Positions 18,262-47,189 of a DNA stretch of 64,000 bases are shown here, in pieces. The position numbers and the translations under genes are program-made. The stretch spans positions 1,121 through 65,120 of the forward strand of contig CAZFFP010000007.1 in the NCBI GenBank assembly GCA_964518215.1, in the 5' to 3' direction. How positions within the stretch are numbered: position 1 is the stretch's first letter; every line of letters begins with the position of its first letter. The notes beneath the pieces are model-generated. The model did not search any database. It worked only from the letters and a program-made list of their open reading frames with translations, and was not told where the DNA came from. Source of the DNA: an uncultured Chitinophagaceae bacterium (GTDB lineage: Bacteria > Bacteroidota > Bacteroidia > Chitinophagales > CAIOSU01).

Positions 18262-19188
18262 ATGCCACACAGAAGAGTTCTCCATGACGATACGCTTGAA
18301 GCCCAATTTCAAAAAGACGGTTATGTGCGTGCGCCTTTCATAACGACCGAGGAGGTAGAGGCTCTAAAACAAAAGTTTTTTGATACCCTACCCCAAAGCG
18401 GTGGACAAATTACGGCTGATGAAACGGGCGTGGATGGCGGCAATCTGATTACCTACGACTTTACTTTTATTGATAAGAACCCCAACTACAAAAGGTTAGT
18501 GTTCGATATTATTACTGATTATTTCAAGCCGCATGTGGAGAGGCTTTTGGTAAACTATAAGCCAATTATTGCCAACTACATTCATAAGCGCCCTGAAGGA
18601 GGCGAAGTGCCCTTGCATCAAAATTGGGCTTTTGTAGATGAAAGGAAGTGCACTTCTGTTTCGATTTGGTGCCCGCTTGTGGACTCAACAGTTGACAATG
18701 GCACCCTTCAGGTAGTGCCCGGAAGTCACAAGCGTTTTGGTGAGTTTCGTGGCCCTATGGTCTCTTGGGAATTGGATAACATCAAGAAGGAATTAATCAA
18801 CAAATATCTTGTTCCGCTCGAAACCAAAGCCGGTGATTGTGTTATTTTAGATGACAGTATTATTCATTATTCTGCCATCAACAAAACTCCCGGGCTGCGC
18901 CTGACTATTCAGCTTATTTTAATTCCTTCTGAAGAGCCATCTATACACTATCACATGGATCCGCAACAACCCGAAATAATTCAGGTGCTTGAGGTCGACA
19001 AGGATTTTTACATGGAGTTCAACCCTTGGGCAAAACCAAAAAACGCGAAGCAGTTGCGCTCTTTCAGATTAAATCAACCGTTAATTAACGAGCAAGAATA
19101 TTTGCAAAGAATGAAATTGCCTAAGATTGATGAGCCACAGAAAAATTCACCGCGATTTTTTGAAAGATTAAAGGCGGTGTTTTCATAA
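18262..19188 (+). CDS. PhyH-family Fe(II)/2OG dioxygenase paralog, variant H-Q-N motif
   Basis: 308 aa. LHQNWAFVDE (CAT CAA AAT at 18616-18624), VVPGSH, IIHYSAIN. Same subfamily pattern as the other paralogs, but Asn replaces the facial-triad Asp. Confidence 0.8.
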   Translation: MPHRRVLHDDTLEAQFQKDGYVRAPFITTEEVEALKQKFFDTLPQSGGQITADETGVDGGNLITYDFTFIDKNPNYKRLVFDIITDYFKPHVERLLVNYKPIIANYIHKRPEGGEVPLHQNWAFVDERKCTSVSIWCPLVDSTVDNGTLQVVPGSHKRFGEFRGPMVSWELDNIKKELINKYLVPLETKAGDCVILDDSIIHYSAINKTPGLRLTIQLILIPSEEPSIHYHMDPQQPEIIQVLEVDKDFYMEFNPWAKPKNAKQLRSFRLNQPLINEQEYLQRMKLPKIDEPQKNSPRFFERLKAVFS

Positions 19189-19189
19189 A

Positions 19190-20023
19190 ATGGATATTGT
19201 CATCGAACCAAAACCGCTTAAAGTTATCACCCCCGATTCGCCCGGCATTGCCGAATATTGGCGAGAAATGGTGAAATATCGCTCTCTTATTGTTGTGTTT
19301 GCGCAACAGGAAATAAAAGCCATGTATGCACAAACATACTTTGGTTTATTATGGAGTGTTATTCGCCCATTGATTACTTTGGCAATTTTTTCTGTTATTT
19401 TCAATTACTTTCTAAAAGTACCCACCGAAAAACCTTATTACGTTTTTGCTTTTGCAGGAATGATTGCATGGAATTTTTTCTCTCTCATATCAAACAGTGC
19501 TTCAACTGCTATTCTTGCCAAGCAAAATCTTATTCGCAAAATGTATTTCCCAAAGCTTATTTTACCATTATCAAAAGTTTTGGTGGCAAGTGTAGATTTT
19601 GCCGTTTCATTAGTAATTATTTTTTCAATGATGGTGTATGAAGGGGGAATGTTTGGCATTCAAACATTATCGCTTCCATTTTTTGTTTTATTAAATGTGT
19701 TATGCGGGTTAGCCGTTGCTCTTTGGATGAATTCGCTCAACATCCGATTTCGCGATTTGCACCAAATTATTCCTGCTATTATCGGCATTGCCATTTGGGT
19801 AACTCCCGTTTTTTATCCCACAACTATTATTCCTGCGGGCTACGATTTTTTTGTTTATGCCAATCCGATGGCAGGAGTTATAAAAGGATTTCGCTTTGCA
19901 TTATTAGGGGAAGCTTTTCCTGAATGGCAATATTGGATTGCCATGGGAATAACTTCGCTGCTGGCAGTTGTTGGGGCATGGTATTTATCGCAAACCGAAG
20001 ATAAAATGGTGGATTATGCATAG
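19190..20023 (+). CDS. wzm: ABC-2 type polysaccharide/teichoic-acid-type export permease (Wzm/TagG-like)
   Basis: 277 aa, 6 predicted TM helices. The N-terminal YRSLIVVFAQQEIKAMYAQTYFGLLWSVIRPL is typical of ABC-2 permeases. Confidence 0.85.
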   Translation: MDIVIEPKPLKVITPDSPGIAEYWREMVKYRSLIVVFAQQEIKAMYAQTYFGLLWSVIRPLITLAIFSVIFNYFLKVPTEKPYYVFAFAGMIAWNFFSLISNSASTAILAKQNLIRKMYFPKLILPLSKVLVASVDFAVSLVIIFSMMVYEGGMFGIQTLSLPFFVLLNVLCGLAVALWMNSLNIRFRDLHQIIPAIIGIAIWVTPVFYPTTIIPAGYDFFVYANPMAGVIKGFRFALLGEAFPEWQYWIAMGITSLLAVVGAWYLSQTEDKMVDYA

Positions 20024-21953
20024 CCTCTACACCACATCTCGAATCTTTAGAAATGTCGGATTACAAAAACAATTTGAGCTGTACGGTTATGTTGTTGTGC
20101 CATTTCTAAGTGAAGGCGAAGTGAAAGCCCTGCGCGATTTTTTCTTTGAAAAACATCCGAACATTCCCGATGGTTTTTACAGCAGCAGTTTTAATACCGA
20201 TGACGCGCACAAGAAAAGTGTGAACCAAAAAATTGAAAGTGTGTTGAGCGGAAGGGTAGAGGAACATTTCAATTCAATTAAAAAACTCGGCAGTTGTTTT
20301 TTGAACAAGCAGCCGGGAGCGCAAAGCGAAATGCCCATTCATCAGGATTGGACGGTAGTTGATGAGCCAAACTTCGACAGCATAACTATATGGATTCCCT
20401 TGCAAGATGTAAACAAAACCAATGGAGCGATTCAGGTGATAGATGGCAGCCATCGCCTCACTAAAGCATTACGATCGCCTTCTTTGGAAGACCCTTTTAA
20501 AAATGTGCAAAGCGAAATGCGCAAAGATTTAAAGTTGTTGCCCATGAAAGCGGGAGAGGCATTTATTTTTTCACAGGCATTACTTCATGCTTCGCCACCA
20601 AATTTGAGCAACGAGCCACGCATTGCTGTTACTTATGGTTTAATAGATGCCCAGGCACAACTGATGTTTTATCATCATGAAGCAGGTAAGGTGGAGCAAT
20701 ACTTTGTGGACGAAAGTTTCTTTCAGCAATACAACACACAAATAGGGCAGCGACCAAATTTTGGTAGCGTGCAAAAAACTTTCGATTATCAACAGCACTT
20801 TGTTTCAGCTCTTGAATACCAAAAGATGAAGCAAAATTTTCAGCATATTAAAGCAGCGCAGATGTATAAAATGATTCCAATTTTTAAGGACGATAGCAAA
20901 CAGCAATTTTTTGAGAAAGAAGGCTATGCGGTTTTCCCTTTATTGAATGAAAGTGAGGTGGCTGATTTGAAGGCCTACTACGAAAACCTGAATCTGAAAG
21001 ATGAAAAGGGTTTTGGCTTTCATGTAAGTATGGACAACAGCGATAAAGATTTGTGTCGCAAAGTCAGAGAAAAAGTTTGGGGCGTTGCTTTGCCAAGATT
21101 AGGTGAGCACCTGAAAGATTTCAAGCCGTTTGTTTCGAGTTATGTGGTTAAAGAAATAAACCCTAAAGGAGTGGTGCCTGCACATCAGGATTGGAGTTTT
21201 GTAGATAGAGAAGAAGATGGTTATTCCTCGATTACTTGCTGGATTGCACTGGTGGATACCAATATGGATAATGGAGGTATGGGTGTGATTCGCGGCAGCC
21301 ATAAGTTTATGCAAAACCATCGACCATCGCCATCGCCACAATGCCCCGTGCCTTTGAGCGAACACATGTTCAGCATCTTTCCTTATCTGCACACAGTGGA
21401 TGTAAAAGCAGGCGAGGTGCTGATGTTTGACAACCGAACCTTCCATGCTTCGCCACCAAACACCTCTAATTTTTTACGATTAGCTGCAGGAGTTGGTGTA
21501 ACACAAAAAGATGCGCAGTTGGTGCACTATTATTTAAAGCCCGATGGTACTTTTAAAACTATGTTGCGCTATAATGTAGATGAAGATTTTTACCTGAAAT
21601 ATGAAAATGCAACTTTATCAAAAATGTACGATGAAGGCAAAGTGATTGAAGGCTATGGCGAGCCGGTGGAAGTGCCTTATGAATACAATAAGTACACAAC
21701 AGATGAGTTGGTAGAAATTATCAAAGCAGCGGGTAATGAATACAATATTCCCATGACAGAAAAATTGGCGAAGTTGTTTGGTTACTTAAATGCGGAGCAA
21801 AAGAAAGAGGAAGCAAAAGAAGGAGTATTTGAAACGCCACAACCAATAGAAGTGCAGGAAGAATGGAAGTGGGTGGACGATAGACCCTTTTTTGCAAAAT
21901 ACACTCCTTTAAATATTGCACGAGAAATTAAAAAGCGATTAGTGGGCGCATAA
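20016..21953 (+). CDS. tandem di-domain PhyH-family Fe(II)/2OG dioxygenase
   Basis: I use the ATG at 20016 (MHSLYTTS), an 8-nt overlap with wzm. N-domain: PIHQDWTVVDE, VIDGSH, LLHASPPN. C-domain: PAHQDWSFVDRE, VIRGSH, TFHASPPN. Confidence 0.85.
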   Translation: MHSLYTTSRIFRNVGLQKQFELYGYVVVPFLSEGEVKALRDFFFEKHPNIPDGFYSSSFNTDDAHKKSVNQKIESVLSGRVEEHFNSIKKLGSCFLNKQPGAQSEMPIHQDWTVVDEPNFDSITIWIPLQDVNKTNGAIQVIDGSHRLTKALRSPSLEDPFKNVQSEMRKDLKLLPMKAGEAFIFSQALLHASPPNLSNEPRIAVTYGLIDAQAQLMFYHHEAGKVEQYFVDESFFQQYNTQIGQRPNFGSVQKTFDYQQHFVSALEYQKMKQNFQHIKAAQMYKMIPIFKDDSKQQFFEKEGYAVFPLLNESEVADLKAYYENLNLKDEKGFGFHVSMDNSDKDLCRKVREKVWGVALPRLGEHLKDFKPFVSSYVVKEINPKGVVPAHQDWSFVDREEDGYSSITCWIALVDTNMDNGGMGVIRGSHKFMQNHRPSPSPQCPVPLSEHMFSIFPYLHTVDVKAGEVLMFDNRTFHASPPNTSNFLRLAAGVGVTQKDAQLVHYYLKPDGTFKTMLRYNVDEDFYLKYENATLSKMYDEGKVIEGYGEPVEVPYEYNKYTTDELVEIIKAAGNEYNIPMTEKLAKLFGYLNAEQKKEEAKEGVFETPQPIEVQEEWKWVDDRPFFAKYTPLNIAREIKKRLVGA

Positions 21954-21965
21954 ATCAAAAAAATC

Positions 21966-22934
21966 ATGTTCCAGTTTCCAGATAAAATGTTGCAGGTGTT
22001 TCGCGATGAAAAACACCAAAGTGATTTTGAGAAAAATGGCTTTGTGATTCTTCCTTTTTATACTCCTGAAGAAATCAAAGAATTGGAAGCCACCTATCAT
22101 CGCTTGCATCCGCAAGATGAAAAAGGATTTTTCCCCAGCACCTTTTCAAAAGATAAAAACTATCGTCATGAAGCCGATGAAGAAATTAAACGCATAGGCA
22201 ATCGTAGCATTGAAATGTATTGTCAGGACATTAAAGTGGTGTGCGGCTCATTTATTGTAAAAAGCCCCGGCCCTGAAAGCGGCATGTGTGTGCATCAGGA
22301 TATGAGCCTGATTGATGAAAGTCGCTTTACCGGCATCAACATTTGGGTGCCGTTGATAGACCTAACTATTGAAAATGGTGCATTGTTTGTATTGCCCGGC
22401 AGCCACAGAATTTTCCCTACGTATCGTGGCAGCAGCATCCCCGAATTTTTTGCACCGGTGATGAATGATATGATTGACTACCTGCAACCTGTTTTGATAA
22501 AAGCAGGCGAAGCAGTGTTTTTCGACCAAAGCATTATTCACTTTTCTCCCCCTAACTACTCTGATAAAATCAGGATTGTAACCAACACTTATTTTACACA
22601 CAAAACAACTGAATACAGAACTTACTATTGGAACAAAGAGCAACATGGGAGCAATAAATTAGAAGCCTTTGCCCAGGACGATGATTTCATGACCAACTTT
22701 GAGCAGTTTGGCGAGAACATTCGCGATAGACCAAAAGTAGGCAAGTCGCTTGGGCTGGTGGAATATGACTTTCCAACAATTAATAAGGCATTTTTAGATA
22801 GTCGCTTTCAGCGCACCAATGCCAGAAAGTTAATTGAAGATGCCAAGCCTGAATTGTTAAATGTTCAAGCTCCGGTTCAGGCCGAAATTAAAAGCAAAAG
22901 CATTTTTCAACGCTTAAAAGAATTGGTGAGTTAA
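21966..22934 (+). CDS. PhyH-family Fe(II)/2OG dioxygenase paralog
   Basis: 322 aa. CVHQDMSLIDE, VLPGSH, IIHFSPPN. Confidence 0.85.
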   Translation: MFQFPDKMLQVFRDEKHQSDFEKNGFVILPFYTPEEIKELEATYHRLHPQDEKGFFPSTFSKDKNYRHEADEEIKRIGNRSIEMYCQDIKVVCGSFIVKSPGPESGMCVHQDMSLIDESRFTGINIWVPLIDLTIENGALFVLPGSHRIFPTYRGSSIPEFFAPVMNDMIDYLQPVLIKAGEAVFFDQSIIHFSPPNYSDKIRIVTNTYFTHKTTEYRTYYWNKEQHGSNKLEAFAQDDDFMTNFEQFGENIRDRPKVGKSLGLVEYDFPTINKAFLDSRFQRTNARKLIEDAKPELLNVQAPVQAEIKSKSIFQRLKELVS

Positions 22935-23870
22935 ATGGGCAAGCGCATATTTAAAAGCGATGAGCACCAGCAACTGTTTGAGAAGCAAGGCTTCATTGTA
23001 CTGCCTTTTATTACTACAGATGAAGTGGCACAATTAGAAAAATTGTTTGATGAGTTGCATCCTCAAATTAATGAAGGGGGCTTTTTTAGTGGAAGCTACA
23101 GTAGTGATATTGAATACAAGAAAAAAGCTAGTGAAGAGATTGTCAAAGTTTTTAGTAGAGCTTACAATGAACTATTCATCAATTACACTCCCTTTGGTGC
23201 TGCGTTTCTTTACAAGGTGCCGGGTGTAAACAGCGAGCTTGCTGCGCACCAAGATTGGACGATAGTAGATGAACAGAAAAATGTTGCGCTCAACTGTTGG
23301 GTGCCGCTTTGTGATGTTGCAAAAGAGAACGGAGCATTGAGTATTTTGCCGGGTAGTCATTACAATAACCTGAATGTAGTTCGCGCACCCACGCTTCCGT
23401 TTTTTTTTAGTGGTGATGATGATATGGTATTGAAAGAATTGATACCCATGGAAGTAAATGCGGGAACGGCTGTGATTCTTAATCAAAGCGTGATTCATTA
23501 CTCACCGCCCAACAACAGCAACAAAATTCGCAAGGCAATTACGGCCGGACTGAAGAGCGAAGGCGCACAAATGTATTTTCACTACAAAGTTCCCGATAAA
23601 GATGAACTGGAAGTTTTTGAAATGGATGACGACTTTCTTATCAGTTTCAAAGACTTTATGAATGACATCGGAAAGCGACCCTATCTTGGTAAAAGCATTG
23701 GCTTAATTCCTTACAGGCTACCTCAACTGCACGGGACTGATTTGTACGAAAAGCTGAAAGAAATGAAAACTAAAGCAGGATTTGAGATGAGCAGGAATGA
23801 AAAAGTTGAAGTGGACCATAAGAGTGGCGGAAAACTTCGTAAATTGATTTCACGCCTGTTTGGCAATTGA
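22935..23870 (+). CDS. PhyH-family Fe(II)/2OG dioxygenase paralog
   Basis: 311 aa. AAHQDWTIVDE, ILPGSH, VIHYSPPN. The start abuts the previous stop. Confidence 0.85.
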   Translation: MGKRIFKSDEHQQLFEKQGFIVLPFITTDEVAQLEKLFDELHPQINEGGFFSGSYSSDIEYKKKASEEIVKVFSRAYNELFINYTPFGAAFLYKVPGVNSELAAHQDWTIVDEQKNVALNCWVPLCDVAKENGALSILPGSHYNNLNVVRAPTLPFFFSGDDDMVLKELIPMEVNAGTAVILNQSVIHYSPPNNSNKIRKAITAGLKSEGAQMYFHYKVPDKDELEVFEMDDDFLISFKDFMNDIGKRPYLGKSIGLIPYRLPQLHGTDLYEKLKEMKTKAGFEMSRNEKVEVDHKSGGKLRKLISRLFGN

Positions 23871-26633: not shown

Positions 26634-26647
26634 AAAACAGCTTATTA

Positions 26648-27487: not shown

Positions 27488-27537
27488 AAGCCATTCCTGC
27501 TCGTCTTTCGGTATAAATTGGAAACAAGCATTAATTC

Positions 27538-40038: not shown

Positions 40039-40109
40039 ACCAAAATATGTGATTGTCTAAAGTTATTAACTAATTATCAAAAAAACAGAGGGGACCTTAG
40101 CCGTACCCT

Positions 40110-40838: not shown

Positions 40839-42216
40839 AATCTGTAGTAGCCCGTTTAAAAATGTAGTTGATTGCCACCTTTGCGTGTGAAAGGTGAGGT
40901 AACAATTTCATGGGCGATTGAAATACAAATTCCTGAGAGAAATAGAATTTTCTGTAAAAATAGCTTCGTCTTTTCGCTGCAATCTTATTGTGCGCCTCGT
41001 CTGTAAAATAATTAATGTATGGATACAGAGAGAAGTTAACCTGATGTTTTAGTTTTTCAAATAGCGGAGTTCCGGGGTAAACCTTTAGTGTATCTACTAA
41101 AATATAGTCGCAAGTTTTCTTTGCAAAACTGATGCTTTGCTCAATATCTTCATCGGTTTCTCCGGGAATTCCGGTGAGGAAGAAGCCCATAACTTCAATC
41201 CCGATTTTTTTTGCATATTGAAGATTGCTCACGCATTCGCTGATAATTATTTTCTTATTTAAAAAGTCCAGCACTCTTTGGCTGCCACTTTCCACTCCTA
41301 CATTTATTCTTACACACCCGGCTTTCTTCATCCAGAAAAGCATTTCTTCATTAAGAGTGTCTGCCCGACTAAGACATGTCCAGGATATATCTAACTTGTG
41401 CTGCAGCATGAGCTTGCAGATATTTATGACTCTAGAGGGAATTGCCGTAAAAGTGTCATCTATAAATCTCAGCGACTTGATGTTGTGTACTTTCTTAAGC
41501 AGATGAATTTGTTCTAAAACATTTTCGGGAGTGAGCATGGTAAGTTTTGTTCCAAAAGAATGAACACAATAGTTGCATTGGTACGGACAGCCTCGTGCTG
41601 TTTGAATCAATCCGAATGGGGAAGGCATAAGCGGCTCCCCGTAGTACTTGTTCTCGAGAAGCTCATACGGGGGAATGGGTAGTTCGTTGGGGTTGGGTAT
41701 TCTCCTGTCTTCGCCATTGTCTATAATTTCACCCAAACTATTTTTGATTGCTGTTCCGGTAATGTTTTCCGGCAACAAATCAGTCCAGCTAAAAAGCAGG
41801 TTTTTAAACACATCGTCCGGCTCTCCTTTCATTACAAAATCGGCTCCCGATAACCGAATGGTTTCTTCGGAAAAATGAGTTGGATAGTGTCCGAAAACAC
41901 CGTATTTAATATCGGGGAATGTGTTTTTAATTTCGGCAATCATATCTGCGTCTTTGTCAAAAAGTTCGAAACTCAGTATGCTTATAATTAAAGACGGCTG
42001 ATAATTTTGAATGATATTGAGTGCCTCCGGCATATTCTTATTTTCGGCTGTGGCATCAACAAACTTTACATCGTGTCCTAATTCTTTTGCCACTCCTGTT
42101 AAAGAAAGAAGTTCGTGTGGCGGAAAAAGCATTTTGGGAGGAAACGAGCTACACATGTATCTTCGAACAACCGGTATGGCAGAGGGCAGGTTTAAAAACA
42201 GTATTCTCATTTTCAT
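40828..42216 (-). CDS. B12-binding domain radical SAM enzyme (class B)
   Basis: 462 aa. N-terminal B12-like segment (RILFLNLPSA...LIISILS) and cluster motif ARGCPYQCNYC. Confidence 0.85.
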   Translation of the reverse strand: MKMRILFLNLPSAIPVVRRYMCSSFPPKMLFPPHELLSLTGVAKELGHDVKFVDATAENKNMPEALNIIQNYQPSLIISILSFELFDKDADMIAEIKNTFPDIKYGVFGHYPTHFSEETIRLSGADFVMKGEPDDVFKNLLFSWTDLLPENITGTAIKNSLGEIIDNGEDRRIPNPNELPIPPYELLENKYYGEPLMPSPFGLIQTARGCPYQCNYCVHSFGTKLTMLTPENVLEQIHLLKKVHNIKSLRFIDDTFTAIPSRVINICKLMLQHKLDISWTCLSRADTLNEEMLFWMKKAGCVRINVGVESGSQRVLDFLNKKIIISECVSNLQYAKKIGIEVMGFFLTGIPGETDEDIEQSISFAKKTCDYILVDTLKVYPGTPLFEKLKHQVNFSLYPYINYFTDEAHNKIAAKRRSYFYRKFYFSQEFVFQSPMKLLPHLSHAKVAINYIFKRATTDYAY

Positions 42217-42217
42217 G

Positions 42218-43327
42218 CTATTTTTCCTCTTTTATGAGTTCGATAATACAATCGTAAATATGTTTAGCTTTTAATTCTTCGCCTATTTCGTTTACATGAA
42301 TACCATCGTCATTCAAAAATAAATCGGGAGTAAACTCATGTTCGGGTAAGATACATAAATGAGCATCTGTTTCCAAAGATATTTCCGCCAAATACTCTGA
42401 GTTTATGTTCAAACCATTTATTAATACATCTCCCAGACCATCAGGCATTTTAGTTTTATCGGCAACTTCGGGCACAAATAATACTTTGCTGCCTTTGCTT
42501 TGTGCTTCCATTACCAACAACTTATAGTTGTTATAAAAGGCGTTATATTTTTTATTATACATGTCTTCATTTTCTTTTTCAAACCAGTTATTATCGTTGT
42601 TGAAATCAAAAAATACATTTTTCTCCAATGAGTTTTCTAAGAAAATAGAATATCGCCAACGTATCCAAAAGAAAGAAAAGGCATTAGATGTCATGAGTAT
42701 TTTCTCAATTTGTGTGGGTTGCGGAATATTATAAAACACCCTTCTTAAATTGTGGTAATCCGGCTGATACACAGCCCCATTAATTCCCGAATAGGCAAAA
42801 GCATCGTTGAAGCCGGTGTGAATCACAATTAAATCAGGATATAAATATTGATGCTTAAAATGATAATGATTTAATATTTCGGCAGAGGTAAGCCCGTGCA
42901 CGCCTGCATTCAGGCACTCTACCTTTTGGAATGATGGATTTATGGTTTTGATTTTTTCAGATAATCTGTCGTGAATAATTTTAGGAAAAACATTAAACTC
43001 ATCATCTACATCGCCAAAAGTGGTGGAGCCTCCCAAAAAAAGAATTCGCAGGGTATTATTGGATTTTTTCAGGGTTATTTCTTCGTGGTATCGAATTCCC
43101 TTGCTGTTTATCGGGTAATTGCCTTTGCTATCAGTTTGATTCGGATTATTTATGTAATTTAAGTATGGTTGTGAAATATATCCCGATTTTGTGTCAACAC
43201 TTAATATTGCTTTTTTTGTGGGAAGTATATAGGGATGAAAAATGCTCAACGCCACATAGACAATAGCTTCTATTATTACAATCGTTAAAACAAAAACAAT
43301 TAAATAATAGTATGCTTTTTTTCTCAT
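42218..43327 (-). CDS. membrane-anchored SGNH/GDSL-like hydrolase or acyltransferase
   Basis: 369 aa. N-terminal TM YYLIVFVLTIVIIEAIVYVALSIF. Block I LRILFLGGSTTFG and block V DGIHVN. Confidence 0.7.
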   Translation of the reverse strand: MRKKAYYYLIVFVLTIVIIEAIVYVALSIFHPYILPTKKAILSVDTKSGYISQPYLNYINNPNQTDSKGNYPINSKGIRYHEEITLKKSNNTLRILFLGGSTTFGDVDDEFNVFPKIIHDRLSEKIKTINPSFQKVECLNAGVHGLTSAEILNHYHFKHQYLYPDLIVIHTGFNDAFAYSGINGAVYQPDYHNLRRVFYNIPQPTQIEKILMTSNAFSFFWIRWRYSIFLENSLEKNVFFDFNNDNNWFEKENEDMYNKKYNAFYNNYKLLVMEAQSKGSKVLFVPEVADKTKMPDGLGDVLINGLNINSEYLAEISLETDAHLCILPEHEFTPDLFLNDDGIHVNEIGEELKAKHIYDCIIELIKEEK

Positions 43328-43363
43328 CGTCCCTGCGGTTTGTAATTGATTATACGGGTGTCT

Positions 43364-43387
43364 AAAATACTATTTTATTAGTATTTT
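43364..43387. promoter_or_regulatory. inverted repeat AAAATACTA-(6 nt)-TAGTATTTT in the divergent intergenic region
   Basis: Read directly from the sequence. Confidence 0.25.
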
Positions 43388-43514
43388 CATGCGGACAGTT
43401 GCTTGGGCTGAATGAATTTCTACATTGCAGCCCTGTTGCCTGCCCGATAAAGTATTTAGTTTTTGTTCTAAATTTTGTCTTGCTCGCAAATTTTGTTCAA
43501 CTTAAAATCTTTTA

Positions 43515-43533
43515 TACAGAGATTATCTCTGTA
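43515..43533. promoter_or_regulatory. 19-bp palindrome TACAGAGAT-T-ATCTCTGTA, 25 nt upstream of the wzt-like start
   Basis: Read directly from the sequence. Candidate operator in the divergent promoter region. Confidence 0.3.
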
Positions 43534-43557
43534 AAACCAAATAAACAAAAATAATGT

Positions 43558-44772
43558 ATGAGCGGACTCGCTTTCAGAATACAATCTTTGTCGAAACATT
43601 ACGTCCGGGATAACGGAAATATAGTTAAAGCAGTAGACAATATCTCATTTGATGTTGAGCAAGGAAGTTTTGTTGGATTAGTGGGTAAAAATGGTTGCGG
43701 AAAAAGCACGCTGCTAAATATTTTGGGCGGAATAGTGAAGCCAACAAGCGGGAGTGTGGAAATTTATGGGCGCGTTCTTGCGCTAACTGATATAGGTGCC
43801 GGATTTCATCCGGAACTAAACGGCTTAGAAAATATTATGATGGCAGGCGGATTATTTGGCTTAACTAAGCCGGACATTCAAAAGCTTCTTTCAAACATTA
43901 TAGCTTTCAGCGAGCTTAGCGAAGAATTTCTTGAAATGCCTATCAAAAACTACTCTCAGGGCATGTTTTTGAGATTGGCTTTCAGCACATATATACATTT
44001 CCCTGTTGACATACTTTTGTTAGATGAAATATTAGCTGTGGGCGATGCTAATTTTCGGCAAAAATGTTTTACCATCATCAAGCAAAAAGTCGAAAATGGG
44101 CTAACGGTAATTTTGGTTTCTCATACCTACGATGAGGTGCTTTCATATTGCAAAAGGTCTATAGTGCTTAATCTCGGAAAAATAGTTGCTGACGACAAGC
44201 CCGAAAATGCCTTTGATTCATACATGAAATCTATGGGAATAGTTACAACTAATAATGTTTCCGGAGAAAAACAAATACATTCCTACATAAATTTTTACCA
44301 CGAAAATTATCTCAATATTGAAACTGTAAAAATTGGCTCGGTAAATCAAAATGTAGATTTGATAAATTTTAACATGCCCCTTACTATAAGTATAATTTGG
44401 AACAAAATACAGAGCCAATGTTCCATCTTTATGGATATCATTATATCAGACAAGTTTAATAAACCGATTATTGCCACCTCAAATTATTATGGAAAAAAGC
44501 TTGATGTGCAAGAGTTGAATAATTTTGGTGAAAGTGGTAGATTTAAAACAGAATGCGTCATTCCGCCCTGTTTCCTAAATATAGGAATGTATAAAATAGA
44601 CATACTTGGGACGGTTTTTTTAAATGAAAGAGAATATTTTTCTTTATTTAAAACAACAGCCCCTTTTTTATTGGTAGTAACCGAAAATGCCGAGCTTAGT
44701 AGGAATCATTTTTGGACCAAAAGCGATGCCCCGATAAGAACAAAACTCGATTGGGTTGAAACCAGTATATAA
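43558..44772 (+). CDS. wzt: polysaccharide ABC exporter ATP-binding protein (Wzt/TagH-like) with C-terminal extension
   Basis: 404 aa. Walker A GKNGCGKST, signature YSQGMFLRLAFS, Walker B ILLLDEILAVGD. The C-terminal extension of about 170 aa sits where Wzt carbohydrate-binding domains occur. Confidence 0.88.
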   Translation: MSGLAFRIQSLSKHYVRDNGNIVKAVDNISFDVEQGSFVGLVGKNGCGKSTLLNILGGIVKPTSGSVEIYGRVLALTDIGAGFHPELNGLENIMMAGGLFGLTKPDIQKLLSNIIAFSELSEEFLEMPIKNYSQGMFLRLAFSTYIHFPVDILLLDEILAVGDANFRQKCFTIIKQKVENGLTVILVSHTYDEVLSYCKRSIVLNLGKIVADDKPENAFDSYMKSMGIVTTNNVSGEKQIHSYINFYHENYLNIETVKIGSVNQNVDLINFNMPLTISIIWNKIQSQCSIFMDIIISDKFNKPIIATSNYYGKKLDVQELNNFGESGRFKTECVIPPCFLNIGMYKIDILGTVFLNEREYFSLFKTTAPFLLVVTENAELSRNHFWTKSDAPIRTKLDWVETSI

Positions 44773-44797
44773 AATCTTTTTTCAGAAAAATTAAGCA

Positions 44798-45640
44798 ATG
44801 CTGATTAATAAAGAATATCTCTATACTCTTAAACAAAATGGTTTTGTATCCTTTCCTCTATTGAAAGAATCAGATATAAATGAACTAAAGAAATTGTATC
44901 AAAAGTTTGAAACAGAACACCTCGTGCACGAAGAGGGATTTAAAAAAACCAGTTCTTTTGCAGACAAAAACCAGGTTTTAGAAATAAATAAAAGAGTCAG
45001 TGAAATTATTGCTCCAATACTGCCCGAGCATTTTAAAGCCTATCAGATGCTCGGATGCAATTATTTAATCAAATCCAGTAATAGCGACCAAACAAAAGTA
45101 CCTCTTCATCAAGACTGGACGTATGTTGATGAAACAAAATTTTATTCCATGAATGTTTGGATAGCGCTGGAAGATATTGATGAGCGTAATGGCTGCTTGT
45201 TTTTTATTCCCGGCAGTCATCGAATTGGAAATTTTCTGAGATCTGCACCCTCTTATCCGGTTCCATTTTCTCAACACATTGATTTTTTGGAAAAGTTTAA
45301 AGTGCCGGTACCTGTTAAAGCCGGAACGTGTATATGCTTTAATAACAAAACCATACACGGCTCTTTTGCAAATATGGGAAACACCAACCGGCTTGTGGTT
45401 GTAACAACACTTTTTCCTGAAAACGCGAAACTGCTTCATCACTACATTCACGATTTAAAAAAGCCTGAGATTGTAACCGAATATCACATATCAAAGGATA
45501 CATTTTTAACTTTAGAAACAGGAAAACATCCGGCATCATTCTTTGAAAAGCGCATAGTTAAAACTCATTATCCGGGGTTCAGCCCGTTTTATTTTTTTTA
45601 CAAAAAACTCTTTATGTTAACAGAAGATTTTTTTAAATAA
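44798..45640 (+). CDS. PhyH-family Fe(II)/2OG dioxygenase paralog
   Basis: 280 aa. PLHQDWTYVDE, FIPGSH, TIHGSFAN. Confidence 0.85.
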   Translation: MLINKEYLYTLKQNGFVSFPLLKESDINELKKLYQKFETEHLVHEEGFKKTSSFADKNQVLEINKRVSEIIAPILPEHFKAYQMLGCNYLIKSSNSDQTKVPLHQDWTYVDETKFYSMNVWIALEDIDERNGCLFFIPGSHRIGNFLRSAPSYPVPFSQHIDFLEKFKVPVPVKAGTCICFNNKTIHGSFANMGNTNRLVVVTTLFPENAKLLHHYIHDLKKPEIVTEYHISKDTFLTLETGKHPASFFEKRIVKTHYPGFSPFYFFYKKLFMLTEDFFK

Positions 45641-45773
45641 TCAATCAAATATATTTTGTCCAAGTATAAAAGCAGTTTTAAATTTCATGAAACAACATGC
45701 CGTAATAGCTTTTCTGATTTTTATAGACGCGCAAGATTTTATCTGAATGCTACACTCTTAAAATTCAGACACA

Positions 45774-47189
45774 TTGAAAAGAGAAATTAAACTCAGGCAT
45801 ATTAGGCGCATTTTTATCGGTATTGGCTTCATATTTATTCTTGCGTTAGTTTTTAAACCAAAAGCAGGCTCCGATTACTTTGAGGTTTGCGAGCCGTTTC
45901 CAACCGATGCGATTGAATACCATCTTCCTGCGGCAAATCTTGCCCTTCATAATGCCTTCCCGTATTTTGGGTTTATCGGACCAAAAGAAGATTATAAATT
46001 ATGCCAAAACAATAATGAAAACATTTATCATCAAATTTTAGAAGAGGCATCATCAATTGTTTTTCCAAGCAAGCCGCCTTTGTATTCGCTTTTGCTTGGA
46101 TTAGGCTTCAAGATTTTCGGATATTCCCCCGCCACCGCTCTTTTTTTCAATCTGCTTTGTTTTTATCTAATAATATACTTTTTGTTTGTTGCCTGTTATT
46201 TTTTGTTGGGCATGAAGGGCTTATTTGTAGCGCTTATTACATCTATATTATTGTGCGTTATTGAAGTTAATCTTATATCTTTTGATGCAGAGCTGTTAAC
46301 CGCATTGTTGGTATTAATAGCCTTCACTTTTGGAGTCATTGCTTTTAGAAATAAAAATGCAAAATATCATTTGCTATTTGGATGCGCAATGAGTTTGTTG
46401 GTATTATGTAAAGGTTATTTTGTGTTTTCAGTTATGATATTTATCATCATCTACTTGTCTTTTATTCTGAAAAATAAAGTGATGAGCGCTATCTATTCGC
46501 TTATGTTTTTTCTTATGGGATTTTTATTGTTTATTCTTCCTTGGGTGTGTTTTATAAATTTTTCTATTCAAAACAATATCGAGAGCAGAACTGCCTTTCA
46601 TAACAAACTAAAAGAGCATGCCCCAAATTTAATATTGAATAATCATGATGAAATTTATAATGCAAATGGAGCAATAAGGGACGATGTGATTTTCGACCTT
46701 ATGCTCTTTCATCAATACCAACATGCTGCCGAAAACAATTTTGTTTTTATCACTAATCAGTTAGGAGAGTACAATATTTTGAATGTTCATAATGAATATT
46801 GTTCAGACGGAGACTTTCATCCCGAATGGAGAATTATCAAAACTTCTTTTTACAATAAGCATAAGGATAAAGATAAAAACACAAAACTTTTTATGTTTTA
46901 CCGCTATCATTTTCTTTTGGGCATAGAGATTGTTTTGGCGAAAATTAAGAATTCAATTACGGCTAAAACTTTTTGGTATTGGTGCGCTATTATTTTGCTT
47001 TTGTTTTTTGGTTTGAAGCAAAAATATCCCAAAGAATTGCTGACAGCATTAATATTCATGGCGAATGTGTTTCTTGTATTAATAGTGTTTTATGGAGATG
47101 TAAGGTTTGTTCAAACCGTTATCCCGCTTTCAATTTTGAGCATAGGAGTTGTGCTTTATTGTTTCAATAGCAGCGAGTCTGATTTGTAA
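45774..47189 (+). CDS. GT-C fold glycosyltransferase (ArnT / PMT_2-like)
   Basis: 471 aa with a TTG start in the track. Many TM helices. FPSKPPLYSLLLGLGFKIFGYSP resembles the conserved first periplasmic loop/helix of the ArnT/PMT family. Confidence 0.65.
   Translation: MKREIKLRHIRRIFIGIGFIFILALVFKPKAGSDYFEVCEPFPTDAIEYHLPAANLALHNAFPYFGFIGPKEDYKLCQNNNENIYHQILEEASSIVFPSKPPLYSLLLGLGFKIFGYSPATALFFNLLCFYLIIYFLFVACYFLLGMKGLFVALITSILLCVIEVNLISFDAELLTALLVLIAFTFGVIAFRNKNAKYHLLFGCAMSLLVLCKGYFVFSVMIFIIIYLSFILKNKVMSAIYSLMFFLMGFLLFILPWVCFINFSIQNNIESRTAFHNKLKEHAPNLILNNHDEIYNANGAIRDDVIFDLMLFHQYQHAAENNFVFITNQLGEYNILNVHNEYCSDGDFHPEWRIIKTSFYNKHKDKDKNTKLFMFYRYHFLLGIEIVLAKIKNSITAKTFWYWCAIILLLFFGLKQKYPKELLTALIFMANVFLVLIVFYGDVRFVQTVIPLSILSIGVVLYCFNSSESDL

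What the first reader, a model, noticed from the sequence alone, without database searches (positions are those of the whole stretch)
18262..47189. Oxygenase- and radical-SAM-saturated block nested in a Wzm/Wzt plus Wza/Wzc envelope-glycan locus, with no characterised counterpart I know of
Within about 29 kb I count:
- 7 ORFs / 8 domains of one PhyH-type Fe(II)/2OG subfamily, sharing HQDW-x3-DE ... PGSH ... H-x-S-P-P-N;
- one WelO5-like H-x-G protein;
- one JmjC/cupin-8 protein;
- two AspH/LpxO-like hydroxylases;
- three B12-binding radical SAM enzymes and one SPASM radical SAM enzyme;
- a UbiA prenyltransferase, a GT2, a UPF0104 flippase-like protein, a GT-C protein and an SGNH hydrolase;
- a pentahaem cytochrome c and two paralogous ~560-aa polytopic proteins.

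I see no PKS/NRPS, no convincing RiPP precursor and no sugar-nucleotide synthesis genes. Ordinary polysaccharide loci are dominated by glycosyltransferases, not a dozen oxygenase domains.

Two working hypotheses:
(a) The block makes a multiply hydroxylated, C-methylated and possibly chlorinated polyprenyl- or lipid-anchored glycoconjugate, exported through the ABC transporter and Wza.
(b) It is a protein or peptide hydroxylation/glycosylation system whose substrate is encoded elsewhere. AspH, JmjC and PMT-like families classically modify proteins.
Basis: partly seen in the sequence, partly recalled or inferred. Interest (0 to 1): 0.9.

Follow-up and report, generated by a model that had tools for sequence, protein, structure and literature searches.

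The report
Oxygenase-rich envelope glycoconjugate export locus
This is a real gene cluster, conserved in many uncultured freshwater and wastewater Bacteroidota, that joins a sugar-polymer-type export pump to an unusually large set of oxygen- and radical-using tailoring enzymes; its product is unknown and I found no described counterpart.

Summary
Window 18262-47189 holds 7 PhyH ORFs (8 domains), one WelO5-type protein with the halogenase H-x-G motif and one JMJD5-like cupin. It also holds two AspH/OlsC-like hydroxylases, three B12-radical-SAM enzymes and a fourth radical SAM. The rest are UbiA, a small GT2, a flippase-like protein, a PMT_2 GT-C, an SGNH hydrolase, a pentahaem cytochrome, two polytopic proteins and Wzm/Wzt.

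It is not a chance pile-up. The string PhyH1-(Wzm)-2xPhyH-PhyH3-PhyH4 recurs in the same order in about 80 loci at 45-85% identity. All 80 genome records listed are Chitinophagales/Flavobacteriales/Saprospiraceae-type MAGs. Around this core the accessory set varies: extra PhyH copies, WelO5-like proteins, B12-rSAMs, AspH, small GT2s, UbiA, GT-C-like proteins and SGNH. Sugar-nucleotide genes are also frequent.

Best reading (about 0.45): a polyprenyl-linked envelope glycan or glycolipid is tailored oxidatively at the inner face of the membrane. Wzm/Wzt then exports it, and Gtr/Arn-type three-component modules decorate it in the periplasm. A purely lipid product, a protein or peptide substrate, or a mosaic of separate modules are not excluded.

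No literature or curated-family counterpart was found. I rate it a new variant of a known kind, interest about 0.62.

The parts
16984..18135 (+). WecA/MraY-family polyprenyl-phosphate sugar-phosphate transferase, the likely initiating enzyme. It lies just upstream of the block, 126 bp before PhyH1.
   Evidence: PF00953 7.9e-27. TIGR02380 WecA 3.4e-19, below its cut-off. 8 hydrophobic segments.
18262..19188 (+). PhyH1, a core PhyH-type protein that carries H-x-N (HQNW) in place of H-x-D.
   Evidence: PF05721 1e-23. The Asn is conserved in at least 95% of 65 orthologues. Basic amphipathic C-terminal tail.
19190..20023 (+). Wzm, the ABC-2 permease, embedded in the PhyH core operon.
   Evidence: PF01061 2.6e-14. 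Best NCBIfam match is the galactan-export Wzm/RfbD, below its cut-off. Adjacent to the core in at least 46 loci.
19968..21953 (+). PhyH2x2, a fused double PhyH dioxygenase; both domains carry HQDW...H. The real start is probably about 16 codons downstream of the listed TTG.
   Evidence: PF05721 9.2e-50 with two stretches. Orthologues are 628-650 aa. Motifs.
21966..22934 (+). PhyH3, a core PhyH dioxygenase (HQDM...H).
   Evidence: PF05721 3.2e-23. Orthologues 46-85% identical.
22935..23870 (+). PhyH4, a core PhyH dioxygenase (HQDW...H, invariant R199).
   Evidence: PF05721 5.8e-22. 513 homologues, the best 120 at 63-100% identity. Invariant columns. AF2 model with pLDDT 76.5 matches the PhyH-type tailoring oxygenases SptF, AndA, SnoK, EvdO2 and PHYHD1.
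23850..25514 (-). B12-binding radical SAM enzyme 1.
   Evidence: PF02310 9.6e-22 and PF04055 3.6e-17. All NCBIfam hits are below their cut-offs. Orthologues at 60-80% identity in several loci.
25731..26633 (+). WelO5-type 2OG enzyme with the halogenase-type H-C-G motif.
   Evidence: PF22814 1.3e-64. PDB 8aut and 5iqs at E 1e-32, with H-x-G and the distal His aligned. 10 of 15 homologues in these loci have HxG or HxA and 5 have HxD or HxE.
26630..27487 (+). PhyH5, an accessory PhyH dioxygenase (HID...H).
   Evidence: PF05721 6.3e-12.
27538..28959 (+). B12-binding radical SAM enzyme 2.
   Evidence: PF04055 4.1e-15 and PF02310 7.3e-09. In L004 its orthologue is followed directly by the cytochrome gene.
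28978..30177 (-). Pentahaem c-type cytochrome with one N-terminal hydrophobic segment.
   Evidence: Five CXXCH motifs. MtrC/MtrF-like domain 8e-09. Homologues in 4 related loci.
30383..32095 (-). TM570, a polytopic protein with a likely GT-C fold (ArnT-like).
   Evidence: No Pfam or NCBIfam hit. AF2 model with pLDDT 67.8; best PDB folds are ArnT 5ezm/5f15 at TM 0.47-0.50 and E 6e-3, then Pmt4, AglB and AftA. D31 near the N-terminus is invariant among 5 sequences. Its orthologue directly follows a small GT2 in L086.
32092..32937 (-). PhyH6, an accessory PhyH dioxygenase.
   Evidence: PF05721 4.6e-17.
33122..33955 (-). Cupin_8/JmjC hydroxylase, JMJD5-like. The listed TTG start overlaps the radical SAM gene by 83 nt, so the true start is probably downstream.
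   Evidence: PF13621 1.2e-43. PDB JMJD5 at 2.5e-33. The order Cupin8-rSAM-UbiA is repeated in L004.
33873..34883 (-). Radical SAM enzyme of the PTO1314/MoaA/NirJ-like type, with a partial SPASM/twitch-like Cys motif.
   Evidence: PF04055 3e-22, with no SPASM hit. TIGR03961 8.9e-31, below its cut-off. Weak PDB matches to SkfB, MoaA and GDGT-MAS.
34870..35670 (-). UbiA-superfamily intramembrane transferase.
   Evidence: PF01040 4.8e-13. Sub-threshold matches to 'prenyltransferase' and to decaprenyl-phosphate phosphoribosyltransferase. No PDB sequence hit.
35677..36414 (-). AspH/OlsC/LpxO-like hydroxylase 1, with a C-terminal hydrophobic segment.
   Evidence: PF05118 2.1e-36. OlsC 3.7e-28 and LpxO 8.7e-20, both below their cut-offs. 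Hydrophobic segment.
36544..37560 (-). LPG_synthase_TM / flippase-like membrane protein.
   Evidence: PF03706 1.4e-25. TIGR00374 at 52.2 bits passes its cut-off of 43.2.
37570..39246 (-). TM558, a polytopic protein whose C-terminal domain is paralogous to that of TM570.
   Evidence: No family hit. 22% identity over 131 aa to TM570, E 4e-7. 9 hydrophobic segments.
39259..40038 (-). AspH/OlsC/LpxO-like hydroxylase 2.
   Evidence: PF05118 1.1e-35. OlsC 2.4e-30, below its cut-off.
40110..40838 (-). Small soluble GT2, a candidate polyprenyl-phosphate sugar synthase.
   Evidence: PF00535 1.2e-24. Sub-threshold hits to ArnC, PpgS and AglJ. No hydrophobic segment.
40828..42216 (-). B12-binding radical SAM enzyme 3.
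   Evidence: PF04055 2.6e-25; PF02310 at 29.1 bits, below its cut-off. HpnJ-like 5.5e-50, below its cut-off.
42218..43327 (-). SGNH/GDSL hydrolase or acyltransferase with an N-terminal membrane anchor.
   Evidence: PF13472 6.7e-07, below its cut-off. One N-terminal hydrophobic segment. SGNH genes recur in related loci.
43558..44772 (+). Wzt, the ABC ATPase, with a C-terminal extension of about 170 aa.
   Evidence: Best PDB match is full-length Aquifex Wzt 8dku/7k2t at 5.7e-53, aligned over residues 27-313, past the nucleotide-binding domain. Wzt/TagH NCBIfam hits are below their cut-offs.
44798..45640 (+). PhyH7, an accessory PhyH dioxygenase.
   Evidence: PF05721 7.1e-25.
45774..47189 (+). 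PMT_2-type GT-C glycosyltransferase.
   Evidence: PF13231 3.3e-06, 27.8 bits against a cut-off of 26.1. 10 hydrophobic segments.
10654..13781 (+). AsnB-like amidotransferase and a GT4 glycosyltransferase. They lie outside the stated block but possibly belong to the same locus.
   Evidence: AsnB-like genes (8 loci) and GT4 genes (4 loci) recur next to the PhyH core in relatives, side by side in L074 and L076.

Best explanation
The block is a biosynthesis-and-export locus for an envelope glycoconjugate (a glycan or glycolipid) assembled on a polyprenyl-phosphate carrier.

**Proposed steps (all inferred)**
1. A WecA-type transferase primes the carrier. Few conventional glycosyltransferases are present to build on it.
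2. At the cytoplasmic face of the membrane, a conserved set of four PhyH proteins (five domains) acts on the lipid-linked intermediate. These proteins are operon-coupled to Wzm and carry basic amphipathic C-terminal tails. Four of the five domains keep the Fe(II)/2-oxoglutarate triad.
3. A variable set of accessory enzymes adds further changes: extra PhyH copies, an H-x-G WelO5-type enzyme, three B12-radical-SAM enzymes, two OlsC/LpxO-like hydroxylases and a JMJD5-like cupin. Expected chemistry is hydroxylation, C-methylation and possibly chlorination.
4. Wzm/Wzt moves the product across the inner membrane.
5. In the periplasm, Gtr/Arn-type 'three-component' modules add side-chain sugars and the SGNH enzyme adds or removes acyl groups. 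Each module has a small GT2 or UbiA enzyme that makes a polyprenyl-phosphate sugar, a flippase-like LPG_synthase_TM protein, and GT-C enzymes (45774, and probably 30383 and 37570).

**Shown:** family assignments, motifs, operon layout and conserved synteny.

**Inferred:** the substrate, the site of action, the order of steps and every chemical outcome.
For: 1. All seven PhyH ORFs, WelO5, Cupin_8, both AspH proteins, UbiA, GT2, LPG_synthase_TM and PMT_2 pass Pfam's cut-offs.
2. The core genes are tightly packed: PhyH1-Wzm-2xPhyH-PhyH3-PhyH4 with gaps of 1, -56, 12 and 0 nt.
3. Of 41 related loci with enough flanking DNA, 37 keep at least three of the four core genes and 26 have Wzm within reach. 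The median is 6 PhyH ORFs per locus and the maximum 11 (maps).
4. The accessory modules recur beside the core in a different order in a MAG labelled Flavobacteriales (L004) and in L009, L071 and L086.
5. Wzt is closest to full-length Aquifex O-antigen Wzt. The alignment runs past the nucleotide-binding domain, and both proteins are 404 aa.
6. Neighbours in related loci are glycan-type:
   - ArnC-like GT2, aligned over its full length at 2e-34;
   - PseC/ArnB-like DegT;
   - PseH-like GNAT;
   - FabH;
   - NAD epimerase;
   - GFO/IDH/MocA;
   - sulfotransferase and carbamoyltransferase.
7. The TM570 model matches ArnT, Pmt4, AglB and AftA, all GT-C folds. Its orthologue directly follows a small GT2 in L086.
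8. The C-termini of the core PhyH proteins are basic and amphipathic across orthologues. The hydrophobic moment is 0.54-0.64, against 0.39 for internal control segments.
9. Three-component periplasmic glycosylation is known to decorate O antigens, including a UbiA-type donor synthase working with a GT-C (PMC11127046).
Against: - No glycan-polymerising glycosyltransferase set and no sugar-nucleotide genes lie inside the block.
- Wzt is much less conserved among the loci (28-45% identity) than the PhyH core (45-85%).
- Wzm and Wzt were found within 10 kb in only 26 and 14 of 41 well-flanked loci.
- Three loci carry a PhyH4 orthologue alone (L006, L007, L010).
- The GT-C assignment of TM570 rests on a medium-confidence model and a weak E-value.
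- UbiA shows no detectable similarity to any solved UbiA-family structure, and so none to the DPPR synthase structure 8j8j cited in PMC11127046. It also lacks a phosphatase partner.
- The sequence and fold neighbours of PhyH4 include terpenoid- and sugar-modifying enzymes alike, so they do not fix the substrate.
- A periplasmic pentahaem cytochrome has no role in this model.
- No enzyme activity or product has been observed.
Confidence: 0.45

Rival explanations
1. The product is essentially a lipid, not a glycan. An isoprenoid or long-chain acyl scaffold, prenylated by UbiA, is hydroxylated many times, C-methylated by B12-radical-SAM enzymes (and by CMAS-like methyltransferases in relatives) and chlorinated. 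It carries at most one or a few sugars and is expelled by the ABC-2 pump. This would be comparable in logic to decorated lipo-oligosaccharides exported by NodIJ, or to hopanoid tailoring.
For: - Almost every tailoring family present is known for chemistry on unactivated aliphatic carbons:
  - PhyH;
  - OlsC/LpxO-like hydroxylases;
  - WelO5;
  - B12-rSAM enzymes whose best sub-threshold hits are hopanoid and 'lipid biosynthesis' families.
- Related loci often carry a CMAS-like methyltransferase (30 loci), a second UbiA (19), FabH (9) and a fatty-acid desaturase.
- The top fold neighbours of PhyH4 are the meroterpenoid oxygenases SptF, AndA and TlxI.
- Glycosyltransferases are few and small.
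Against: - No terpene cyclase, polyprenyl synthase, PKS or fatty-acid synthase set lies in the block.
- Wzt resembles O-antigen/teichoic-acid exporters (5e-46) more than NodI (7e-23).
- DegT, GNAT, epimerase and GFO genes, an ArnC-like GT2 and GT-C enzymes point to sugars.
- The fold hits of PhyH4 are all about equally distant, at TM 0.4-0.5.
Confidence: 0.25
2. The system hydroxylates, methylates and glycosylates a protein or a ribosomal peptide encoded elsewhere. This would be like proteusin-type RiPP maturation or the hydroxylation and O-glycosylation of surface proteins. The ABC-2 pump would then export the peptide or a lipid-linked glycan donor.
For: - The cupin is closest to the human arginyl hydroxylase JMJD5 (2.5e-33).
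- AspH and PMT families classically modify proteins.
- The B12-rSAM enzymes have sub-threshold hits to RiPP C-methyltransferases, and the fourth rSAM to peptide maturases.
- Published comparative genomics linked PhyH plus beta-hydroxylase neighbourhoods to secreted protein substrates (PMC2938197).
Against: - No conserved small ORF lies in any gap of the block; tblastn of 8 gap ORFs against 87 loci found nothing better than E 0.6.
- No protease, leader-recognition or cyclase family appeared in the scans.
- The PhyH core, not the cupin or the AspH proteins, is the conserved part. Cupin_8 occurs in only 2 and AspH in only 4 of 41 well-flanked loci.
- The sequence and fold neighbours of PhyH4 are small-molecule enzymes.
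Confidence: 0.12
3. The block is a mosaic. A conserved PhyH/Wzm/Wzt module sits in a hypervariable, low-G+C surface-structure island next to functionally separate cassettes. These could be a lipid A or aminolipid hydroxylation and glycosylation cassette and stand-alone rSAM/cytochrome genes. There would then be no single product.
For: - The accessory content differs greatly between loci.
- Most accessory families occur in a minority of well-flanked loci.
- G+C drops across 24-48 kb.
- The block has four transcription units on both strands.
- OlsC/LpxO-like enzymes and ArnT-like GT-C enzymes could act on lipid A on their own.
Against: - The same accessory families re-assemble around the core in a MAG labelled Flavobacteriales, in a different order (L004), and in L009, L071 and L086.
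- Accessory PhyH and WelO5 paralogues belong to the same subfamilies as those near the core elsewhere.
- Genes within each unit are tightly packed or overlapping.
Confidence: 0.15

Closest known systems
ABC transporter-dependent O-antigen/capsule assembly (Wzm/Wzt type, e.g. E. coli O9a, Klebsiella O-polysaccharides, Aquifex Wzm-Wzt structures 7k2t/8dku)
   Same: It has an ABC-2 permease and a Wzt ATPase with a C-terminal extension, closest to full-length Aquifex Wzt. A WecA-type initiating transferase lies immediately upstream. The locus sits among surface-polysaccharide genes.
   Different: There is no set of polymerising glycosyltransferases and no recognisable chain terminator. Wzm is embedded in an operon of four PhyH oxygenase genes, which to my knowledge is not a feature of any characterised O-antigen locus. 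PhyH genes have been noted, without a function, in Xanthomonas wzm/wzt LPS cassettes (bioRxiv 10.1101/2022.03.02.482478).
Three-component periplasmic glycosylation systems (GtrA/GtrB/GtrC; ArnC/ArnEF/ArnT; PPPRS-flippase-GT136 of Citrobacter youngae, PMC11127046)
   Same: It has a small GT2 with sub-threshold ArnC/PpgS/AglJ similarity and a UbiA-family membrane enzyme. It also has a flippase-like membrane protein and up to three GT-C-type proteins. In L086 a GT2 gene is directly followed by the TM570 orthologue.
   Different: The flippase candidate belongs to the LPG_synthase_TM family, not to GtrA/SMR/MATE. UbiA has no HAD phosphatase domain or partner and no detectable match to any solved UbiA-family structure, and so none to the DPPR synthase structure cited in the paper. 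AspH-like hydroxylases are interleaved with these genes.
WelO5-family carrier-protein-independent Fe(II)/2OG halogenases (WelO5, AmbO5)
   Same: There is a full-length PF22814 match (1e-64). H-x-G replaces H-x-D at the aligned position and the distal His is kept. The H-x-G or H-x-A form is found in 10 of 15 homologues in these loci.
   Different: The context is an envelope-glycoconjugate locus in Bacteroidota rather than a cyanobacterial indole-alkaloid cluster. Identity to WelO5 is low. Halogenation has not been tested. Sister copies in related loci carry H-x-D or H-x-E.
PhyH-type tailoring dioxygenases of natural-product pathways (EvdO2/AviO orthosomycin oxygenases, SnoK, SptF/AndA, MysH, PHYHD1)
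   Same: They share the fold and metal-binding motif. Sequence hits range from E 3e-10 to 1e-4, and fold hits have probability 1.0 at TM 0.42-0.50 normalised to the query.
   Different: Identity is only 15-20%. This subfamily has its own conserved C-terminal region of about 100 aa and a basic amphipathic tail. It occurs as a fixed four-gene, five-domain set, one member of which has H-x-N.
Lipid hydroxylases LpxO (lipid A) and OlsC (ornithine lipid)
   Same: There are two PF05118 proteins whose best NCBIfam matches are OlsC and LpxO. One has a C-terminal hydrophobic segment.
   Different: Scores of 98-106 bits are far below the equivalog cut-offs of 450-500. These genes are accessory, present in 4 of 41 well-flanked loci.

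Membership tests
ABC transporter-dependent glycan export (Wzm/Wzt) | ABC-2 family permease | tested here: met
   PF01061 at 53.7 bits against a cut-off of 26.9. The NCBIfam Wzm equivalog is not reached: 51.5 bits against 380.
ABC transporter-dependent glycan export (Wzm/Wzt) | Wzt-type nucleotide-binding protein | tested here: met
   Aquifex Wzt 8dku at 5.7e-53; TagH and RfbE structures at 1e-37 to 1e-42.
ABC transporter-dependent glycan export (Wzm/Wzt) | C-terminal carbohydrate-binding domain on Wzt that reads a chain-terminal cap | tested here: inconclusive
   A C-terminal extension of about 170 aa is present. The alignment to full-length Aquifex Wzt runs to residue 313 of 404. No structure model was made.
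ABC transporter-dependent glycan export (Wzm/Wzt) | Cytoplasmic polymerising glycosyltransferases and a chain terminator | tested here: not met
   Only one small GT2 lies in the block and one GT4 upstream. No kinase or methyltransferase terminator is present in the window. A CMAS-like methyltransferase lies directly upstream of Wzt in 11 relatives.
ABC transporter-dependent glycan export (Wzm/Wzt) | Polyprenyl-phosphate priming enzyme | tested here: met
   A PF00953 protein lies 126 bp upstream of PhyH1. No counterpart was seen within 10 kb in the relatives.
Three-component periplasmic glycosylation (Gtr/Arn/PPPRS-GT136) | Polyprenyl-phosphate sugar synthase (GT2 of the GtrB/ArnC/DPM1 type, or UbiA-type PPPRS) | tested here: inconclusive
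   The 242-aa GT2 has only sub-threshold ArnC, PpgS and AglJ hits. UbiA matches DPPR synthase at 34 bits against a cut-off of 234, has no PDB sequence hit and has no phosphatase domain. In relatives, a 308-aa GT2 aligns full-length to ArnC at 2e-34, still below the cut-off.
Three-component periplasmic glycosylation (Gtr/Arn/PPPRS-GT136) | Small flippase of the GtrA/SMR/MATE type | tested here: not met
   No such family was found. Instead there is an LPG_synthase_TM 'flippase-like' protein that passes TIGR00374.
Three-component periplasmic glycosylation (Gtr/Arn/PPPRS-GT136) | GT-C fold glycosyltransferase | tested here: met
   The protein at 45774 passes PF13231 narrowly, 27.8 bits against 26.1. 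The TM570 model matches ArnT at TM 0.47-0.50, probability 1.0 and E 6e-3, which is suggestive only.
WelO5-type halogenase | Family match with Gly or Ala replacing the carboxylate of the H-x-D/E...H triad | tested here: met
   PF22814 at 218.9 bits. H-C-G aligns to the H-V-G of WelO5 and the distal His aligns too.
WelO5-type halogenase | Halide-dependent C-H halogenation activity | not testable with these tools
   Needs an enzyme assay or a product mass spectrum with a chlorine isotope pattern.
PhyH Fe(II)/2-oxoglutarate dioxygenase | PF05721 match above the gathering score | tested here: met
   All seven ORFs score 46.7-170.3 bits against a cut-off of 22.
PhyH Fe(II)/2-oxoglutarate dioxygenase | H-x-D/E...H iron triad | tested here: met
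   Present in 7 of 8 domains. PhyH1 has H-x-N, conserved in at least 95% of 65 orthologues, so that member fails this feature.
RiPP (proteusin-like) biosynthetic cluster | Precursor peptide gene in or next to the cluster | tested here: not met
   No conserved small ORF lies in any gap. A precursor encoded elsewhere cannot be excluded.
LpxO/OlsC lipid hydroxylases | Score at or above the equivalog cut-off | tested here: not met
   OlsC matches score 98.4 and 105.6 bits against a cut-off of 450. LpxO matches score 71.0 and 68.8 bits against 500. Only the domain family PF05118 is met.

The most novel reading that the evidence does not exclude
The PhyH1-Wzm-2xPhyH-PhyH3-PhyH4 plus Wzt core may define a previously unrecognised, export-coupled oxidative tailoring machine. 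It would make a new chemical class of bacterial surface molecule: a polyprenyl-assembled glycan or glycolipid that is polyhydroxylated, C-methylated by B12-radical-SAM enzymes and, in loci with H-x-G WelO5 copies, chlorinated. As far as I know this would be the first halogenated or radical-SAM-methylated envelope glycoconjugate pathway. It would be restricted to uncultured freshwater and wastewater Bacteroidota.
Probability: 0.3. Interest if true: 0.85.

Novelty: new variant of a known kind. Interest (0 to 1): 0.62.

Why it matters
If the model holds, a large group of abundant but uncultured lake and activated-sludge Bacteroidota coat themselves with a surface molecule whose chemistry has no characterised precedent among bacterial envelope glycoconjugates. 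That chemistry would include multiple C-H hydroxylations, radical C-methylation and possibly chlorination.

This would bear on phage and grazer recognition, floc formation and carbon cycling in those habitats.

The locus would also supply new enzymes:
- a five-domain oxygenase set that works at the membrane;
- an H-x-N PhyH variant;
- WelO5-type halogenases outside cyanobacterial alkaloid pathways.

The conserved four-gene core is a simple marker for finding and comparing such loci.

Tried and rejected
- **Source contig.** Exact-sequence look-ups of two window proteins found no record. The organism is therefore inferred only from near relatives: Chitinophagales-type MAGs, plus a 100% identical protein on a 75-kb NCBI contig.
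- **Curated names.** No NCBIfam equivalog cut-off is reached by any protein in the block except the generic flippase-like domain.
- **RiPP precursor.** The search was negative.
- **TM570.** Sequence searches against solved structures and against the large protein set (only 5 hits) gave nothing informative. Only the fold comparison was useful.
- **UbiA.** No match to any solved structure, so I did not file it as a DPPR-type synthase.
- **PhyH4 fold search.** It confirmed the fold but did not discriminate between substrates.
- **Literature.** Searches combining PhyH, WelO5, radical SAM, Wzm/Wzt, Chitinophagales and O-antigen found no description of this gene set.
- **Phosphonate pathway.** Considered because of weak PhnY-like and PhpK-like hits. 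Rejected because the scans of the block showed no PEP mutase or any other phosphonate-pathway family.
- **Hopanoid or tetraether lipid pathway.** Considered because of sub-threshold HpnJ/HpnR/Tes hits. Rejected because no cyclase or glycerol-ether genes are present.
- **Wza/Wzc as part of the system.** Rejected because they are absent near the core in all relatives examined.
- **Not used.** The representative-library search, the metagenome scan and the phage, plasmid and E. coli collections. They would not have added context or annotation.

Full report
**What is in the sequence**

Between 18262 and 47189 the window encodes 25 tightly packed genes in four transcription units:
- Unit A (+), 18262-23870: PhyH1, Wzm, a fused double PhyH, PhyH3, PhyH4. 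Gaps are 1, -56, 12 and 0 nt.
- A lone B12-radical-SAM gene on the minus strand, 23850-25514.
- Unit B (+), 25731-28959: WelO5-like, PhyH5, B12-rSAM.
- Unit C (-), 43327 down to 28978: SGNH, B12-rSAM, GT2, AspH-like, TM558, flippase-like, AspH-like, UbiA, rSAM, cupin, PhyH6, TM570, cytochrome.
- Unit D (+), 43558-47189: Wzt, PhyH7, GT-C, running on into prmC.

- The eight PhyH domains are one subfamily: 20-40% identity to each other, with the shared motifs HQD[WM]-x3-DE, [GNH]SH and H-x-[ST]-x-x-N.
- The WelO5-like protein aligns to the WelO5 crystal structures at E 1e-32. It has H-C-G where WelO5 has H-V-G, and it keeps the distal histidine.
- The cytochrome has five CXXCH motifs.
The fourth radical SAM enzyme has no SPASM hit in Pfam and only a partial cysteine motif. 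The two polytopic proteins are detectably paralogous only in their C-terminal 131 residues.
- No NCBIfam equivalog cut-off is reached by any protein in the block except the generic flippase-like domain.

**Surroundings**

- Upstream lie an AsnB-like amidotransferase, a GT4, Wza, Wzc and a WecA-type priming transferase.
- The wider locus is bracketed by the housekeeping genes mnmG (6917-8782) and prmC (47149-48105).
- G+C dips to 0.34-0.37 across 24-48 kb, as is usual for surface-structure islands.

**Is it more than chance?**

Yes.
- PhyH4 has 513 homologues, and the best 120 are 63-100% identical.
- A scan of one genome per species found 154 loci. All 80 listed are MAGs labelled Chitinophagales, Chitinophagaceae, Saprospiraceae, Flavobacteriales or 'Bacteroidetes'. 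By their isolate names, several come from lakes, a bog and wastewater reactors.
- Gene maps built by BLAST against the window proteins show PhyH1-2xPhyH-PhyH3-PhyH4 in the same order in nearly all loci, at 45-85% identity.
- Among 41 loci with enough flanking DNA:
  - 37 keep at least three core genes;
  - 26 have Wzm and 14 have Wzt within reach;
  - the median is 6 PhyH ORFs per locus and the maximum 11.
- The accessory families of the window recur around the core, but variably: B12-rSAM in 16 of 41, small GT2 in 17, UbiA in 11, GT-C-like in 10, SGNH in 10, WelO5 in 7 and AspH in 4.
- In L004, from a MAG labelled Flavobacteriales, the flippase-like gene, Cupin8-rSAM-UbiA (same internal order), B12-rSAM plus cytochrome, and SGNH all sit next to the core in a different overall arrangement. 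That argues for a functional link rather than an accident of one genome.
- Wza and Wzc were never seen near the core elsewhere, so I do not count them as part of the system. AsnB-like and GT4 genes do recur.

**What the relatives add**

Genes that are frequent near the core but absent from the window were clustered and annotated:
- a CMAS-like SAM methyltransferase (30 loci);
- a 373-aa UbiA (19 loci);
- a DegT aminotransferase of the PseC/ArnB type (12 loci);
- a PseH-like GNAT (10 loci);
- FabH (9 loci);
- an NAD epimerase/dehydratase (7 loci);
- GFO/IDH/MocA (6 loci);
- a 308-aa GT2 that aligns full-length to ArnC (2e-34).

Also present are a sulfotransferase, extra SGNH proteins, SPASM radical SAM enzymes and a fatty-acid desaturase. 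Carbamoyltransferase genes appear in L003 and L086. A recurrent string is FabH-GT2-GNAT-(unknown)-Wzm-PhyH1-2xPhyH-PhyH3-PhyH4-PhyH-methyltransferase-Wzt. These are the usual ingredients of N-acylated amino-sugar synthesis on a polyprenyl-phosphate carrier.

**Clues to mechanism**

1. Wzt is closest to the full-length O-antigen Wzt of Aquifex (5.7e-53). The alignment extends past the nucleotide-binding domain, and both proteins are 404 aa long.
2. The AF2 model of TM570 (pLDDT 67.8) finds ArnT first, then Pmt4, AglB and AftA. All are GT-C enzymes, but the match is modest: TM 0.47-0.50, E 6e-3. An aspartate near the N-terminus is invariant. In L086 the orthologue directly follows a small GT2.
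3. The small GT2 or UbiA, the flippase-like protein and the PMT_2 GT-C together have the layout of Gtr/Arn-type three-component periplasmic glycosylation. That mechanism is known to decorate O antigens and can use a UbiA-type donor synthase (PMC11127046).
4. All four core PhyH proteins end in a basic amphipathic segment, for example SIFQRLKELVS. It is conserved in character across orthologues, with a hydrophobic moment of 0.54-0.64 against 0.39 for internal controls. I take this as a sign of peripheral membrane binding. This is an inference.
5. PhyH4 keeps HQDW, the distal His and an invariant Arg. Its model (pLDDT 76.5) matches PhyH-type small-molecule tailoring oxygenases: SptF, AndA, SnoK, EvdO2, MysH and PHYHD1. 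The sequence search against solved structures returned the same kind of enzymes. This confirms the enzyme class but not the substrate.
6. PhyH1 carries H-x-N in at least 95% of 65 orthologues.
7. WelO5-like proteins in these loci come in both halogenase-type forms (HxG or HxA, 10 of 15) and hydroxylase-type forms (HxD or HxE, 5 of 15). The glycine in the window's copy is therefore a real, recurrent state.

**Best explanation and rivals**

I favour, at about 0.45, a polyprenyl-linked envelope glycan or glycolipid that:
- is oxidatively tailored at the cytoplasmic face of the membrane by the conserved PhyH set and the variable accessory enzymes;
- is exported by Wzm/Wzt;
- is then decorated in the periplasm by the three-component modules and the SGNH enzyme.

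The main weaknesses are these:
- polymerising glycosyltransferases are lacking;
- Wzt is poorly conserved relative to the PhyH core;
- the pentahaem cytochrome has no explained role;
- there are no biochemical data at all.

The rivals are:
- a mainly lipid product (0.25), favoured by the aliphatic C-H chemistry of nearly all the families and by the CMAS-like methyltransferase, UbiA and desaturase genes in relatives;
- a protein or peptide substrate (0.12), favoured by the JMJD5-like cupin but lacking any precursor and resting on accessory rather than core genes;
- a mosaic of separate cassettes in a variable island (0.15).

**Comparison with what is known**

- The transport and periplasmic glycosylation parts resemble known systems: Wzm/Wzt export and Gtr/Arn/PPPRS-GT136 modules.
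- Several defining features are unmet or only weakly met: polymerising glycosyltransferases, a GtrA/SMR/MATE flippase, and a DPPR-type UbiA with a phosphatase.
- The conserved five-domain PhyH operon wrapped around wzm has no described counterpart that I could find. The only related note is the unexplained presence of PhyH genes in Xanthomonas wzm/wzt LPS cassettes.
- I therefore rate it a new variant of a known kind, with a 0.3 chance that it defines a new class of surface molecule.

Noticed in passing
window 18262-19188 (residues 119-121 of PhyH1): PhyH1 has H-Q-N where the other domains have H-Q-D. The Asn is conserved in at least 95% of 65 orthologues. To my knowledge an H-x-N variant of the 2OG-oxygenase iron triad is not a described class. 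It could be a pseudoenzyme, a scaffold or a new ligand set.
   Followed up: partly
C-termini of the proteins at window 18262-19188, 19968-21953, 21966-22934 and 22935-23870: All four core PhyH proteins end in a short basic amphipathic segment (…FFERLKAVFS, …AREIKKRLVGA, …IFQRLKELVS, …LRKLISRLFGN). Its character is conserved across orthologues. It looks like a membrane-targeting helix.
   Followed up: partly
related loci L002, L029, L030, L031, L033, L063, L066, L072, L077, L086: WelO5-like paralogues occur in two states at the metal site: HxG or HxA (10 of 15) and HxD or HxE (5 of 15). Both states sometimes occur in the same locus. This suggests repeated switching between halogenase-type and hydroxylase-type enzymes.
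   Followed up: partly
window 28978-30177; L004 17242-18408: A membrane-anchored pentahaem cytochrome c recurs beside a B12-radical-SAM gene in at least two loci. A periplasmic electron carrier has no obvious role in a biosynthetic locus.
   Followed up: no
L006, L007, L010: Orthologues of PhyH4 at 73-82% identity occur alone, without PhyH1-3 or Wzm, in a different shared gene neighbourhood. PhyH4 can therefore work outside the four-gene core.
   Followed up: no
window 33122-33955 and 19968-21953: The mechanical ORF starts (both TTG) overlap the preceding genes by 83 and 56 nt. Orthologues are shorter: 269 aa for the cupin and 628-650 aa for the double PhyH. The true starts are therefore probably internal ATG codons.
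   Followed up: partly
window 683-1744 (-) and 1899-5249 (+): A tyrosine recombinase/integrase gene and a 1116-aa DUF4175 protein lie at the left end of the window, about 9 kb from the polysaccharide genes.
   Followed up: no
window 52903-59289 (-): A 2128-aa protein has only weak Ig/PKD-like domain hits. It may be a large surface protein and a conceivable glycosylation target. It was not examined further.
   Followed up: no
window 59779-61156 (-) and 63243-63962 (-): A DAHP_synth_1 protein, KdsA-like by its 258-aa length, a SIS-domain protein and a nucleotidyltransferase with hexapeptide repeats lie 12-16 kb downstream. These are sugar-nucleotide or Kdo-type genes outside the block.
   Followed up: no
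related loci such as L014, L023, L026, L084: A recurring trio accompanies the PhyH core in many relatives but is absent from the window: an unannotated 403-aa protein, a 373-aa UbiA and a CMAS-like methyltransferase. The methyltransferase also often sits directly upstream of Wzt.
   Followed up: partly
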